A stretch of DNA of 64,000 nucleotides from the human T2T-CHM13v2.0 reference genome, Homo sapiens, in the NCBI RefSeq assembly GCF_009914755.1, contig NC_060925.1; one strand, written 5' to 3'. The position numbers and the translations under genes were made by a program. Shown piece after piece: positions 45,788-54,558 of the stretch; within the stretch, counting starts at the first letter, position 1, and each line of letters starts with the position of its first letter. The notes below the pieces were generated by a model. It was given only the letters and a program-made list of their open reading frames with translations, did no database searches and was not told where the DNA came from.

Positions 45788-45956
45788 CATTCCTGGGAGA
45801 TGGTCGGGAAGAAGAAGGGAGTCTCAGGCCAGAAGGATGGTGGCCAGACGGAATCCAATGAGGAAGGCAAAGAAAATCGAGACCGGGACAGAGACTATAG
45901 TCGGCGACGTGGTGGGCCACCAAGACGGGGGAGAGGTGCCAGCCGTGGACGAGAGT
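45788..45956 (+). CDS. UBAP2L: UBAP2L exon 5: HSWEMVGKKKG...RRRGGPPRRGRGASRGRE(F); alternative donor at 45989 adds 33 nt
   Basis: TATAG|CAT, T|GTATGC, 169 nt; start of the RGG region. Confidence 0.95.
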
Positions 45957-46322
45957 GTATGCATGGGGCTTTATCAAAACCAGCTGTGGGTCAGTAATGT
46001 CTAGACTCTAGGGATGTGCCAGGGCCCTGCTAGTCAGGACCTAGGAACCATTATATTATCCTTTTGCTTTTCTTGCCGTCGTCTGTTCTGAGACCTTGAC
46101 ATCTCTTGCATGTGGCCTTTTCTACCAACTGCCACCAGTCTGGCATGAGATTACCCTGTAGTCATTTATAAAGTTAAATTTGACTTGCAGCTCTCCATTA
46201 AGGCACATTACCATTCCCTGAGAAACATGTTCCCATCCTTCCAGCTCATTTTCTCTTCGTTGTTTTTTTAATTCCCAATACCATATTACATACCATTTAT
46301 ATATTTGTATATATCCTGTTGA

Positions 46323-46943
<621 letters not shown>

Positions 46944-48220: not shown

Positions 48221-48333
48221 AACCTTTAACCCAGCTGATTATGCAGAGCCAGCCAATACTGATGATAACTATGGCAATAGCAGCGGCAATACGTGGAACA
48301 ACACTGGCCACTTTGAACCAGATGATGGGACGA
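48221..48333 (+). CDS. UBAP2L: UBAP2L exon 8: (G)TFNPADYAEPANTDDNYGNSSGNTWNNTGHFEPDDGT(S)
   Basis: TTCCAG|A, A|GTGAGT, 113 nt. Confidence 0.95.
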
Positions 48334-49925
48334 GTGAGTGACCATTTATCATTCATTTCTTGTCTCTGGGAATCTAAGGAAATAGTTTTTTCTGATTATA
48401 CTTACATTAAAACGTGGAAGAATAGTGTTTGGTTATGGAGATAGGGTGAGAAAGGGCTGGCAGTTGTATTACTGTGTGTACTGTTTATGTAACGTGCATA
48501 TGGGCACATTACACATGTTATTTCGCTTAATGCTGCTTGATATTGTATGAAATAATCATTATTTATCATCACTTTCCAGATGACAAAACTAAGGCCGAAA
48601 GAGAGGTTATAAATTTGCTAGTATTTGAACTCAGCATTGTTTGACCCTGAAAGTCCATGCCCTTTCAACTATGCTATGTCACTGCTATTAGGTCCAAGTG
48701 TATTTTCTAGTGTTTATGTTAGGGTAGTGTTGCCTTTTGAAAAGATAGCCAGAATTAATCAAGCCACTGCTTGTAAAGATGAACAAGGCCTAGAATCAAA
48801 GTCCACACTATCCATTTATTTGTTTTCTGTTACTGAGATAAGAATATCCTTTTTTTCCCTTTATTTTTGGGACATGTCAGTATCTGAACAAGAAGATTTC
48901 GAAATCTCTCTAGCCTTTCTGGTGCCCTGTTGAACAGCCTTCTTGGTGTGATGGAGTATTCAGGGTTTGAATAAGATTACTTTTTTGTTAACTGACTTTG
49001 GTGCCTGCGTCTGGGCTGGATATAAATGTTTAAGGATATGTTAAGCTGTGGTATACACCTAAGATGTGTTTGGGGGTGGATACGTGTGCCACTTTCAATA
49101 AGAGCAGTTCATTTTAGTAAGAAAACTCTGGAGTGCTTTCTTGAACAGCTGCCTCATTCTGGCTGAGCTAACACATGAGAGCCTAAGGCTTTTTTTCCTC
49201 TTACAAAGGGGGATGAGTAGGGCCTGAAATGTTTGACTCCTTACCTGTTTAAATTTGCCTTGTCACCTTTCACAGATACGTGATCTCTGGGCCTTTAGGA
49301 GAGCCTTTGGCACAAATAGTTTTCCACCTTTTTCCTACAATATATTATTCCTGAGGCTCTGAATGTCGTCTGCTTTTTGTTCGCCAAGTTGCTATCTTAT
49401 AAATTCATTTTTAACACATTTCATGGGTGGAGGCTGAAGTTGAGTTACAAGATAGGTATCTTTGAATTTCTGCATCATTTAGTTACGAAATGTCCTGTTA
49501 TAGTTTAACTTACTATACTTCGGAGGCATTAGAACTGTTCTTCATTCATCTCTTGATGGCTTTGTAGAGGCAGTGGTAGCAGTCTCAATAACAAATAAGT
49601 TACTGTTTTTGAGCTGTAGCTTATTCCTGGGTATTTGGCTTTTTATCTTTGGCAGGTAAGATGGCAGAAGTTGAAAAGTTTGTTTTTAGTTGTGAATAGA
49701 AATTCAGGCATGGGGTCCCAGTCCTTAGCCTTCGCTGTCTTCAGTAAGGATCTGGTTGGAAAAACAGCGAAAGGTAGTGTGTGTGTTAATTTCTACTGAG
49801 TAGAAAAGGGAGCAGATGTGCAAGGCTGGAATTGGAAATCTGATTTGTAGCTGAATGTGACGCCACTATCGTCTTGTTAGTGCAAAAGTGTTGGTTATAG
49901 CTTCATGAATTCCCATTGTCATTAA

Positions 49926-50250
<325 letters not shown>

Positions 50251-50459
50251 TGATATGAACATACCTTCATGCATGGTTTCTTTTTGTGTTTTCCTGATAG
50301 CAAACTTGAGTTTCCCCTTTAAATTAAAAAAAAAATCCAAACCTACCTTTAAAATATCCACAGGTACAATGGGGATTATGTATTGGGGCAGACTTTCTCA
50401 TTTACAAGCAAAATTTCACTGGTTGTTTTTTCTTTTCTTTTCTTTTTTTTTTGTTTCAG

Positions 50460-50524
50460 GACTTGATTTCATTGGGGTTGAGGGGTCAAATTATCCCCCA
50501 AAATTATCCCCCAGACTGCTCCTG
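50460..50524 (+). pseudogene. UBAP2L: Frameshifted UBAP2L cassette exon, 65 nt: (R)LDFIGVEGSNYP then out of frame; alternative donor at 50539
   Basis: Long polypyrimidine tract and TTTCAG|GA acceptor, CTG|GTATGA donor; resembles the recalled mouse insert RLDFIGVEGSNYPRKFETAPG but is 5 nt longer. Confidence 0.75.
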
Positions 50525-52202
50525 GTATGATACATCCAGGTGCCTAACTGCCCCAGATATTTTTGTAGATTTTTATGAGCTGAAATATCTGTGGATATGT
50601 CATTTTTATGTCTTTCTGCTTTTTCTCTTTCTGCCTTTTTCTCTCATTTTTCTGTGTCCACTTACCTTTCTGTTCATTTAATGAATATTTGACAGTTACA
50701 CTGATTGCTTTCTGCTAATGGAATGGAAACCCTAGTCTGTTGTTTAGAGCATTTCCATCTATTCTGTTCCTTAATGCTTCCTCAGCTCTCTCTCTTCCTC
50801 AGCCATGACCGTATATCCTGAATAGGAACATACCAGTTAGGTGTCTACGTTCCTCCTTTCCATCCCAGTTGAAGTCATCAGTGTGCAGAAAAAAATTCTT
50901 GCATCAAGAGCCTAGATTAAATAACCTGTTAGATCATGTCTAACTCTAGGATTGTGTATAAGTGCTAATGCAACTTGGATTCCATCGAGCCAGGATAAGA
51001 TGGATGTCAATGAGAAGAAAGTGTGGTATCAATGAAGGAGAAAAGAATGTGGTTTGTAACTTGTCTGTACTGAGATTGGACTTTGGTTTTGAGAATATTG
51101 TCATTATTAAGTGGTTTAGGATTTCCCTGGTGCAATTTTAATATTTTCCTGGGAAAGTCTTTACAATGAATATATTTTCCTCTAAGAAAGAAGATTTTTG
51201 CATTATTAAATGTTTAGAAGAATTTTAGATGGGCTTTGTATTAGAATACTTCTAATGTGGTGTTAGAATACTTCTCTTCAGTGGCACAGCATCTGAATGT
51301 CAGACTTTTCATTTCATTCTTATAAGCTTTTTTCCAGTAGGAGGGAAGGATTGAAGAGTTATTTAATATATATTATTCTAGCAAGAAAATAAGGGTGCTC
51401 TTGTCCCTTCTTCAGACAGGTTCTTGTTTTTACTGTGCCTTTGGCTGAAGGGAAGAATCCTGGTTCTTGTTAGAAATTCTCACCCTTATTTTTTAAGAAA
51501 GGACATTTTTTTTTTTCTGAAAATATATGTATACATGAAGCACAAAAAAGGAATGTGGAAGGTGGTTTGATTGCTTTTGGATTTCTCCAGTAGAAACTGT
51601 ATCCCAGCTTCCGTATTACCAACAAACACAAGGACAGTGTATACTCCCGTTGTCTGTGCCATGACCATAGCAGGTCAGGTTTCAAGTTCTATATGAGTAA
51701 GGTTAGGACAGTAACTATCATTCATACCTGATTTTTCAGTCTTGTTCATTGTCTTTTGAAGAGGACAGCTCTATAGGGGCTTTTCTTATACAGTTAAACC
51801 AATAAGATCTATAAACTTGACTTCTGCTGAGTATGCATTTTTAATCTAATTCTCATAGCAGATAGTTTTCAATGCCCTCAGTTCGGGTTTCAAACCCACC
51901 CTTCTTCACTGCTCTTTCACTAACCATTATGTGGTAACCATTTGTGTTTCTCTATCAGTGCTACTATCCTTCTTCAGACTGCCTACAGTATTTTTTGTCT
52001 TATACTAGATAAATAGGTGTAGTTTGCATGTTATGGTTTAAATTGGCTGCTGCCATTTCACTGAATTGACCACTAAATCAACCTGAGGACCTTAAAGATA
52101 CTGCTTTGAGCATTGGGTGGTTGTCTGTCTGTCCCCCCCCCCACCCCCATTCCTGCTTTGTAACAAAAACTGAAAGTAGCTATGAAATCATAATCTTATT
52201 AA

Positions 52203-52594
<392 letters not shown>

Positions 52595-52709
52595 TAAATT
52601 TTAGTCATACTTTTGGCTGCCAAAAAAATTAATACATTGATGTTTTCTATACATGCTTTGTACTGGCATTTAATAGTGAAGTTACTTCACTATTTTTCTT
52701 TATTCTCAG

Positions 52710-52762
52710 GTGCATGGAGGACTGCAACAGAGGAGTGGGGGACTGAAGATTGGAATGAAGAT
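52710..52762 (+). CDS. UBAP2L: UBAP2L exon 9: (S)AWRTATEEWGTEDWNED
   Basis: TCTCAG|GT, GAT|GTAGGT, 53 nt. Confidence 0.95.
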
Positions 52763-54413: not shown

Positions 54414-54499
54414 CTTTCTGAGACCAAGATCTTCACTGCCTCTAATGTGTCTTCAGTGCCTCTGCCTGCGGAGAATGTGACAATCACTGCTGGTCAGAG
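54414..54499 (+). CDS. UBAP2L: UBAP2L exon 10: LSETKIFTASNVSSVPLPAENVTITAGQ(R); ends at a GC donor
   Basis: TTCCAG|CTT; AG|GCAAGT gives the phase needed for exon 11; 86 nt. Confidence 0.93.
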
Positions 54500-54558
54500 G
54501 CAAGTGTGCAGTAAAATTTAGTACCATTTCTTAAACACATCTGCTGAGATTACTGTAA

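What the first reader, a model, noticed from the sequence alone, without database searches (positions are those of the whole stretch)
50460..50539. UBAP2L cassette exon frameshifted by a 13-bp tandem repeat: a coding exon turned candidate poison exon
Seen: a strong acceptor (about 35-nt U-rich tract + CAG), an open frame (R)LDFIGVEGSNYP in phase with exon 8, then an exact tandem 13-mer AAATTATCCCCCA x2 (50488-50500, 50501-50513). The sequence then resumes ACT GCT CCT G|GTATGA in a different frame. Recalled: the mouse protein carries a 20-aa insert RLDFIGVEGSNYPRKFETAPG here, i.e. a 60-nt exon. This copy is 65 nt (+5), as if 'TG' had been overwritten by a slipped copy 'ATCCCCC'. Inclusion shifts the frame to a TGA at 54478-54480. 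The distal donor (CAG|GTGCC, 50539) includes an in-frame TGA at 50528-50530. Both routes predict NMD. Inference: lineage-specific loss of an isoform of a stress-granule nucleator, with splice sites retained and possibly reused for autoregulation.
Basis: partly seen in the sequence, partly recalled or inferred. Interest (0 to 1): 0.85.

Follow-up and report, generated by a model that had tools for sequence, protein, structure and literature searches.

The report
Broken ancient UBAP2L cassette exon
A 65-base stretch inside the human UBAP2L gene is the frame-broken remnant of a small optional coding exon that sharks, fish, birds, rodents and a New World monkey still carry intact, so this human genome can no longer make that version of the protein.

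Summary
Window 50460-50524 is a 65-nt exon-like unit with a very strong acceptor, a GTATGA donor and an exact 13-mer x2 at 50488-50513.

Orthologue proteins show it was a real exon. A 20-21 aa insert sits at exactly this junction in shark, teleosts, birds, a snake, a squirrel (RLDFIGVEGSNYPRKFETAPG) and in retrocopies of hamster and cotton-top tamarin. Skipped forms are also annotated, sometimes in the same species, so it is an ancient alternative cassette.

The human copy matches the start of the insert in one frame and its end (TAPG) in another, offset by +5 nt inside the repeat. Human has no UBAP2L retrocopy. The tamarin retrocopies are therefore post-split, which places the lesion on the catarrhine side. 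I could not date it more finely.

None of 52 RefSeq transcripts uses the exon, and no RNA data were available. "Lost coding exon" is supported. "Poison exon" and "autoregulation" remain untested.

The insert would lie 8 residues upstream of the mapped FXR1/FMRP-binding peptide of UBAP2L (PMC10897489).

The parts
48221..48333 (+). Upstream constitutive UBAP2L coding exon. It ends ...DDGT plus one base (A) that starts the junction codon.
   Evidence: RefSeq annotation. A+GA gives R with the cassette; A+GT gives S when it is skipped.
50415..50459 (+). Acceptor region: a TTCAC branch-point-like motif (A at 50418), a pyrimidine tract with a 27-nt uninterrupted run (50426-50452), and CAG.
   Evidence: In one search the pyrimidine fraction is 0.95 and the run is 27, longer than in all 23 annotated acceptors of the window (maximum 19). 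In one search, 8 of 1656 intronic AG sites are as strong. The branch-point consensus is recalled, not tested.
50460..50524 (+). The 65-nt relic of the ancestral 60-nt alternative cassette exon (proximal-donor form).
   Evidence: Homology to the inserts of P0039, P0007, P0002, P0004 and others at the same junction.
50460..50505 (+). First collinear piece. In frame 0 it reads (R)LDFIGVEGSNYPPK plus TT. Its 15 complete codons match the squirrel insert at 14 of 15 residues (R to P at residue 14).
   Evidence: One search compared with P0039. P at that position also occurs in 2 of 4 tamarin copies and in many fish.
50488..50513 (+). Exact tandem 13-mer AAATTATCCCCCA x2. The second copy carries the extra bases.
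   Evidence: TRF: 100% matches, score 52.
50506..50512 (+). ATCCCCC: seven bases where the intact exon needs two (the last base of the F codon and the first base of the E/K codon). Net change +5 nt.
   Evidence: Inferred from the two-frame match and the orthologue peptides ...KF[E/D/K][T/S]APG.
50513..50524 (+). Second collinear piece. With the preceding C it reads Q-T-A-P-G in frame 2, matching (E/K)TAPG of the orthologues.
50525..50539 (+). Proximal donor GTATGA and the 15-nt extension to the distal donor. In the ancestral frame it reads (G)MIHP(G). In the shifted human frame it holds TGA 50528-50530.
   Evidence: Merops P0002 has TIHPG and Nothoprocta P0028 has TIYPG at this place.
50540..50545 (+). 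Distal donor intron bases GTGCCT.
   Evidence: 7 of 9 consensus matches, but no +4A and no +5G. The annotated UBAP2L donor at 45935 (GAG|GTGCCA) is of the same type.
52710..52762 (+). Downstream constitutive 53-nt exon (S/G)AWRTATEEWGTEDWNED. It begins the FXR1/FMRP-binding segment.
   Evidence: PMC10897489 passages.
54478..54480 (+). TGA reached when the 65-nt form is included.
   Evidence: It lies 19 nt before the 54499 junction, and the select transcript has further coding exons and junctions downstream.

Best explanation
Window 50460-50524 is the human remnant of an ancient, conserved, alternatively spliced coding cassette exon of UBAP2L. The intact exon is 60 nt, or 75 nt with a second in-frame donor.

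In jawed vertebrates it adds about 20 residues (R-L-D/E-F/Y-x-G-x-E-G-S/T-N-Y-P-R/P/Q-K-F-D/E-S/T-A-P-G) between T234 and S235 of the human protein, 8 residues before the peptide that binds FXR1/FMRP.

On the human side of the split from New World monkeys, a change tied to an exact 13-nt tandem copy replaced two bases with seven. It was either one templated slippage or a 13-nt duplication followed by an 8-nt deletion. The exon is now 65 or 80 nt and breaks the frame.

Any mRNA that includes it meets a stop at 54478-80 or 50528-30 with many exon junctions downstream. By the standard rule such an mRNA should be removed by nonsense-mediated decay.

Shown: the homology, the age, the alternative use elsewhere, the +5 offset and the stops. 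Inferred: the mutational path, the date and the fate of the RNA.

My reading is that this is exon death. Productive human UBAP2L mRNA always skips it, and residual inclusion is a passive, unproductive by-product rather than an evolved control device.
For: Anatomy and frames.

Orthologues with an in-frame insert at exactly this junction:
- Shark P0004 and bird P0002.
- Quail, cobra, teleosts, hamster and 4 tamarin models.
- Squirrel P0039 with RLDFIGVEGSNYPRKFETAPG, plus tinamou and many teleosts.

Script tally of all 85 retrieved proteins: 35 insert, 2 insert+5 aa, 1 insert+6 aa, 1 insert+33, 2 insert without a downstream anchor, 20 skip. The rest are UBAP2-type, other, or do not cover the junction. 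Shark P0004 and mole-rat P0017 were misfiled by the regex and carry the insert by eye.

Both forms are annotated in the same species in at least six fish.

Two-frame collinearity of the human exon is shown.

The tamarin models P0011, P0012 and P0005 translate the +1 frame of the spliced mRNA; for P0011 the match runs across three exon junctions. They are therefore processed pseudogenes.

The human genome shows no retrocopy. All 24 matches of P0076 fall in UBAP2L (18) or UBAP2 (6).

0 of 52 RefSeq transcripts use the exon, and the human protein P0076 has the skip junction.
Against: - No RNA data were available, so the real inclusion level in human tissues is unknown.
- The splice signals look fully intact. 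The acceptor is stronger than all 23 annotated acceptors of the window, and the donors fall within the annotated range. A truly silenced exon would more likely show some decay.
- Outside the lesion, the relic differs from the squirrel peptide only by R to P. This fits either a recent lesion or continued constraint.
- The dating rests on retrocopy logic and on a genome search that used a stricter first look. Closed regions are not shown.
- Orthologue DNA was not seen, so the '2 bases replaced by 7' is inferred from peptides.
- Many orthologue rows are automatic gene models.
Confidence: 0.65

Rival explanations
1. Regulated poison exon. After losing its frame, the exon was kept with its splice sites. 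It is included in a controlled way to send part of the UBAP2L pre-mRNA to nonsense-mediated decay, possibly under control of UBAP2L itself.
For: - Premature stops with downstream junctions for both donors.
- Acceptor stronger than all 23 annotated acceptors, and usable donors.
- No visible decay outside the lesion.
- CU-rich tracts on both sides: pyrimidine fraction 0.73 upstream and 0.77 at 50600-50699, against 0.55 for the whole intron. These could bind repressors such as PTB, but that protein is a recalled lead only.
Against: - 0 of 52 RefSeq transcripts contain it, and no non-coding or NMD-type record exists for the gene.
- No paper linking UBAP2L to a poison or cryptic exon at this site appeared in the searches.
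- Intact signals are equally expected if the lesion is young.
- Nothing supports autoregulation.
Confidence: 0.2
2. The +5 allele is private to this assembly or polymorphic in people (or is an assembly error), and an intact 60-nt exon exists in other human genomes.
For: Only one human genome was examined. A short tandem copy is the kind of change that can be polymorphic.
Against: None of the 52 RefSeq transcripts, curated NM_ records included, has an in-frame form. The only human protein retrieved (P0076) skips it. No human protein with the insert appeared among the 85 retrieved, although length limits and 90% clustering weaken that point.
Confidence: 0.08
3. Frame-preserving swap. Because 65 and 53 leave the same remainder on division by 3, a transcript that includes the 65-nt relic and skips exon 52710-52762 stays in frame. 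It would replace SAWRTATEEWGTEDWNED with RLDFIGVEGSNYPPKLSPRLLL and give a new human isoform lacking part of the FXR1-binding segment.
For: Arithmetic. Frame 0 of the relic is open for all 22 codons, and exon 54414 starts in phase 0.
Against: All 52 RefSeq transcripts contain exon 52710-52762. No such protein was retrieved. It would remove residues the paper found critical (W249, E251, D252).
Confidence: 0.03
4. Chance pseudo-exon: intronic sequence that merely looks like an exon.
For: Strong pyrimidine tract plus AG is not unique: 8 of 1656 intronic AG sites qualify, and about five of them look like antisense Alu heads.
Against: The peptide matches orthologue inserts at the same junction from shark to squirrel.
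Confidence: 0.01

Closest known systems
The orthologous UBAP2L cassette exon of other vertebrates (e.g. squirrel P0039, quail P0007, shark P0004)
   Same: Same intron, same phase (R...G junction codons), same peptide for the 15 complete codons (14 of 15 residues) and for the last four residues, same proximal GTATG-type donor, and the same optional 15-nt extension as in two birds.
   Different: The human copy is 65/80 nt instead of 60/75 nt. It cannot be translated through, and no human transcript record uses it.
Poison exons / alternative splicing coupled to NMD, as in SR-protein and hnRNP genes (recalled from general knowledge)
   Same: A cassette whose inclusion brings a premature stop upstream of exon junctions, in a gene for an RNA-binding protein.
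   Different: Classic poison exons are conserved as such, often ultraconserved, and are shown to be included and NMD-sensitive. Here the conserved state is coding. The stop-causing state is a recent lesion, and inclusion is undocumented.
Lineage-specific exon loss in primates, e.g. the elastin exons 34/35
   Same: An exon conserved in other vertebrates is no longer part of the mature mRNA in the human lineage, while the gene stays functional through the skipped form.
   Different: Here the disabling change is a small templated indel inside the exon, the splice sites look untouched, and the lost exon was already alternative.

Membership tests
Conserved UBAP2L alternative cassette exon | Lies in the intron between the ...DDGT exon and the AWRTATEEW exon, entered in phase 1 | tested here: met
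.
Conserved UBAP2L alternative cassette exon | Encodes the conserved insert R-L-D/E-F/Y-..-E-G-S/T-N-Y-P-x-K-F-D/E-S/T-A-P-G | tested here: met
   Frame 0 gives RLDFIGVEGSNYPPK and frame 2 gives QTAPG. Squirrel P0039 has RLDFIGVEGSNYPRKFETAPG. The match is in two pieces only.
Conserved UBAP2L alternative cassette exon | Length a multiple of three, open through to the next exon | tested here: not met
   65 nt and 80 nt; stops at 54478-80 and 50528-30.
Poison exon (AS-NMD) | Inclusion creates a stop codon upstream of at least one exon junction by more than about 50 nt | tested here: met
   The select transcript has further coding exons and junctions downstream.
Poison exon (AS-NMD) | The exon is actually included in a fraction of transcripts | not testable with these tools
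   No read data were available. 0 of 52 RefSeq transcripts use it. Splice signals are adequate.
Poison exon (AS-NMD) | Inclusion isoform rises when NMD is blocked; inclusion is regulated or fed back by the protein | not testable with these tools
   No data. The paper searches found nothing on this exon. Supplements are closed.
Poison exon (AS-NMD) | Conserved in its stop-causing state across species | tested here: not met
   All non-human sequences retrieved that carry the exon have it in frame. Catarrhines other than human were not available.
Tandem duplication / slippage product | Head-to-tail exact copies | tested here: met
   TRF: period 13, 2.0 copies, 100%.
Tandem duplication / slippage product | Length gain equals the repeat unit | tested here: not met
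   The gain is +5, not +13 (65 against 60 nt). It was either a templated replacement or a duplication plus an 8-nt loss.

The most novel reading that the evidence does not exclude
In the human (catarrhine) lineage a roughly 450-million-year-old coding cassette next to the FMRP/FXR1-binding motif of UBAP2L was converted by a 5-nt gain into a still-spliced, regulated poison exon that sets UBAP2L dosage. If so, humans both lack an isoform that mice and most model vertebrates make and have a new brake on a dosage-sensitive neurodevelopmental gene. Splice-blocking oligonucleotides could release that brake.
Probability: 0.15. Interest if true: 0.75.

Novelty: new member of a known kind. Interest (0 to 1): 0.55.

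Why it matters
UBAP2L nucleates stress granules. De novo disruptive variants cause a neurodevelopmental disorder, and mouse haploinsufficiency gives behavioural deficits (PMC9385150; abstract seen in the listing).

The lost insert sits between T234 and S235. That is 8 residues before the 243-274 peptide that binds the KH domains of FXR1/FMRP (PMC10897489; passages read).

Consequences:
1. Rodent and other models can make an isoform that this human genome cannot. This matters when mouse results on UBAP2L-FMRP biology are carried over to people.
2. The relic keeps strong splice signals. Variants that raise its inclusion would lower UBAP2L output, and blocking it could raise output if inclusion is appreciable.
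3. It is a clean, datable example of how an old alternative exon dies through a small templated indel while the skipped form carries on.

Tried and rejected
- Copies of the exon elsewhere in the genome. A 161-nt DNA search gave 5 matches. Only the locus itself covers the exon; the other 4 cover the pyrimidine tract alone. A degenerate pattern for DFIGVEG gave 1 forward and 1 reverse hit against 3 and 2 for the control, so the chr18 hit is chance.
- Paralogue route. I mapped the UBAP2 exons and searched its homologous 11-kb intron with the human peptide and DNA. Nothing beyond pyrimidine tracts and 4-residue chance hits appeared. A bird UBAP2 insert did find a weak candidate; see 'noticed in passing'.
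- Human retrocopies that might preserve the old state: none.
- Splice-site weight matrix. I dropped the plan and compared with the window's own 23 acceptors and 31 donors using simple measures.
- Papers. I found no paper on this exon. The peptide search gave 0 papers. UBAP2L with 'poison exon', NMD and exon inclusion, alternative exon and mouse, cryptic exon and NMD/PTC gave only unrelated mentions. One search was badly framed (any 2 of 6 terms), and none of the 25 listed papers mentions UBAP2L.
- Papers I read passages of, which concern other things: PMC12035866 (exon 27); PMC6408762 and PMC7521338 (the 33-nt alternative donor of exon 45788-45989); PMC12337383 (rat 'mutually exclusive exons', exons not named).
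- Supplementary tables are closed. They are where splicing-event lists would sit, so they may hold this exon.
- Pfam. The insert lies in no Pfam domain.
- Finer dating within catarrhines, population frequency and RNA usage could not be addressed with these tools.

Full report
1. What is in the sequence

One search shows, inside the 4.4-kb UBAP2L intron between exons 48221-48333 and 52710-52762, a long pyrimidine tract ending in CAG at 50459. Sixty-five bases follow (50460-50524), then GTATGA. Fifteen bases further on there is a second CAG|GTGCCT at 50539|50540.

TRF reports an exact two-copy 13-mer, AAATTATCCCCCA, at 50488-50513. Of the 26 TRF rows for the whole window, it is the only short exact two-copy array made of complex sequence.

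I spliced the annotated coding exons in a script. Exon 48221-48333 leaves one base. With the 65-nt unit included the protein reads ...FEPDDGT RLDFIGVEGSNYPPKLSPRLLL..., and the first stop is TGA 54478-54480. With the 80-nt form the stop is TGA 50528-50530.

None of the 52 RefSeq UBAP2L transcripts uses this unit. All 52 splice 48333 to 52710. The stretch is not in a masked repeat; the nearest is 49915-50239.

2. Are the splice signals good?

I compared the unit with the window's own annotated sites.
- Acceptor: pyrimidine fraction 0.95 over -25..-4 and an uninterrupted run of 27 nt. The longest run among the 23 annotated acceptors is 19.
- Proximal donor CTG|GTATGA: 6 of 9 consensus positions.
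- Distal donor CAG|GTGCCT: 7 of 9, but it lacks +4A and +5G.
- The 31 annotated donors score 5 to 9.

Such an acceptor is rare but not unique. 8 of 1656 intronic AG sites in the UBAP2L introns of the window are as strong, and about five of these have the look of antisense Alu heads. Signals alone would not prove an exon. The next section does.

3. It was a real coding exon, and an old one

No primate or mouse genome was available, so I looked for orthologue proteins.

The first search (6 hits of 7 scored, 24 unnamed candidates left out) gave two informative proteins.
- Bird fragment (Merops, P0002): ...FEPDDGT RLDFIGGEGSNYPRKFDTAPG TIHPG AWRAATEEW...
- Shark isoform (Mustelus, P0004): ...FEPDDGT RLHFTGGERANSSPKFETVPG ML-end.

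The second search (23 of 26 scored, 17 left out) and the third (70 of 75 scored, 18 left out) brought the total to 85 proteins. The junction segments are listed.

The grey squirrel protein P0039 reads ...DDGT RLDFIGVEGSNYPRKFETAPG AWRTATEEW... The one human protein retrieved, P0076, reads ...DDGTSAWRTATEEW....

A regex tally of all 85 proteins gave, for UBAP2L-type proteins:
- 35 with the insert
- 2 with the insert plus 5 residues
- 1 with the insert plus 6 residues
- 1 with the insert plus 33 residues
- 2 with the insert but no downstream anchor
- 20 with the skip junction

The remainder are UBAP2-type, odd models, or do not reach the junction. The regex misfiled two rows that carry the insert by eye: the shark P0004, and the mole-rat P0017, whose insert is partly deleted.

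Insert and skip forms are annotated in the same species in at least six fish: Cyprinus carpio, Sparus aurata, Oncorhynchus mykiss, Pygocentrus nattereri, Anabas testudineus and Sinocyclocheilus anshuiensis. Birds also show both states: quail, tinamou, bee-eater and hummingbird have the insert, while sparrowhawk and burrowing owl skip it.

The unit is therefore an alternative cassette exon shared by cartilaginous fish, teleosts, reptiles, birds and mammals. Many of these rows are automatic gene models. They show what the genomes can encode more reliably than what is expressed.

4. The human lesion

One search translates the junction base, the exon and the next two bases in all three frames.
- Frame 0 gives R L D F I G V E G S N Y P P K, identical to squirrel for 14 of 15 residues. 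The R to P change at residue 14 also occurs in 2 of 4 tamarin copies and in many fish.
- After that point frame 0 departs (L S P R L L L).
- Frame 2 ends in Q T A P G, matching (E/K)TAPG.

The human exon is thus two collinear pieces offset by +5 nt. The offset lies at 50506-50512, inside the second copy of the 13-mer. Seven bases stand where the intact exon needs two: the last base of the F codon and the first base of the E/K codon. The nucleotides themselves could not be checked without orthologue DNA.

A plain 13-nt duplication would add 13 bases, not 5. The change was therefore either a single templated slippage with two realignments or a duplication followed by loss of 8 nt. I cannot tell which.

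5. The distal donor is also old

In the ancestral frame the 15 bases between the two donors read (G)MIHP(G) in human. Two birds carry TIHPG (Merops) and TIYPG (Nothoprocta) at exactly this place. The cassette therefore had two in-frame forms, 60 and 75 nt. The TGA at 50528-50530 is in frame only because of the human shift.

6. When did it happen?

Four cotton-top tamarin models (P0011, P0012, P0014, P0015) carry the insert intact: M/T-RLDFIGVEGSNYP-R/P-KFKTAP.

They are not the functional gene. P0011, P0012 and P0005 begin with a translation of the +1 frame of the spliced UBAP2L mRNA, and for P0011 that match runs across three exon junctions before switching to frame 0. P0014 and P0015 share a different garbled stretch. 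They are at least two families of processed pseudogenes.

The human genome has none. The 904-aa human protein finds 24 matches, 18 in UBAP2L and 6 in UBAP2. That search used a stricter first look, and closed regions are hidden. Single-exon searches found only the parent locus.

The simplest reading is that the tamarin copies arose after the split of New World monkeys from catarrhines. The parent mRNA then still had an intact, included exon, so the human lesion arose on the catarrhine side. Whether it is shared with Old World monkeys or apes, or is younger, is open. Whether it is fixed in people is also untested here.

Hamster (P0016) and mole-rat (P0017) models also look like decayed retrocopies carrying the insert. 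A guinea-pig model (P0058) looks like one made from the skipped form.

7. What it does now

Shown: inclusion of either form gives a premature stop, and more coding exons and junctions follow. By the established rule for nonsense-mediated decay such mRNAs should be degraded. That is inference, not observation.

The absence of any RefSeq transcript with the unit (0 of 52) suggests low inclusion. However, annotation pipelines tend to omit unproductive forms.

I rank the readings as follows.
- Passive exon death, with residual inclusion being unproductive: about 0.65.
- Regulated poison exon: about 0.2. The intact, very strong splice signals and the CU-rich flanks keep this alive.
- Private or polymorphic allele: about 0.08.
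- Frame-preserving swap with the 53-nt exon (65 and 53 are equal modulo 3): about 0.03.
- Chance pseudo-exon: refuted.

8. Functional context

In PMC10897489 (passages read) the FXR1/FMRP-binding site of human UBAP2L was mapped to residues 243-274. W249, L253, K257, I258 and F259 are critical, and phosphorylation at T246, S254 and S262 modulates binding. In the numbering the cassette would insert between T234 and S235, 8 residues upstream of that peptide.

The insert lies in no Pfam domain. Whether it changes FMRP-family binding is unknown, but it is the obvious test.

UBAP2L loss-of-function variants cause a neurodevelopmental disorder (PMC9385150, abstract seen in the listing). Dosage effects of any unproductive splicing would therefore matter.

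9. Novelty

My searches found no paper on this exon. Supplementary tables, transcript databases and multi-species alignments were not available, and they may already record it.

In kind it is a new example of two known things: lineage-specific loss of an alternative exon, and a potential source of unproductive splicing.

Noticed in passing
L014 (G000:C9:33980001-33990000), about chr9:33982324-33982389, minus strand: The human paralogue UBAP2 has, in the homologous intron and same phase, an open 66-nt candidate cassette (cag|AACTGG...CAAAG|gtatga). It is weakly similar (tblastn E 0.14 in an 11-kb search) to the insert EPTQSGCYLAQDLPNNFGFR of swan UBAP2 (P0018). Another bird UBAP2 (P0075) has a different insert. 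The cassette may predate the UBAP2/UBAP2L duplication.
   Followed up: partly
window 54494-54505: The donor of UBAP2L exon 54414-54499 is GC, not GT (GAG|GCAAGT). This makes it a GC-AG intron.
   Followed up: no
window 45935-45989: Three alternative donors are annotated for one exon (45935, 45956, 45989). The 33-nt choice is the alternative 5' splice site reported in a circular UBAP2L RNA (PMC6408762).
   Followed up: partly
window 46323-46943: A 207-codon stop-free frame runs from exon 46393-46488 through the intron into Alu-derived sequence. It is probably chance, but it would extend the protein if the donor at 46488 were missed.
   Followed up: no
window 49915-50239 and 50600-50700: A masked repeat lies about 220 nt upstream of the relic's acceptor; an acceptor-like site at 49959 has the look of an antisense Alu head. 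Downstream there is a CU-rich tract with a 16-mer x2.2 at 50611-50644. Either could influence skipping of the cassette in primates.
   Followed up: no
proteins P0011, P0012, P0005, P0014, P0015 (Saguinus oedipus); P0016 (Cricetulus); P0017 (Nannospalax); P0058 (Cavia): Several public 'UBAP2L' protein records are translations of decayed processed pseudogenes. They show frame-shifted stretches across exon junctions and deletions. They are useful as fossils of past mRNA isoforms but misleading as protein entries.
   Followed up: partly
protein P0004 (Mustelus asterias isoform X2): The shark record ends two residues after the cassette (..FETVPGML). It reads past the proximal donor into the intron, which would be a truncated UBA+RGG-only isoform if real.
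   Followed up: no
outside the window (UBAP2L 3' part): RPL22 gain or loss changes splicing of UBAP2L 'exon 27' and binds its 3' UTR (PMC12035866, passages read). A rat study lists a large 'mutually exclusive exons' change in Ubap2l without naming the exons (PMC12337383).
   Followed up: no
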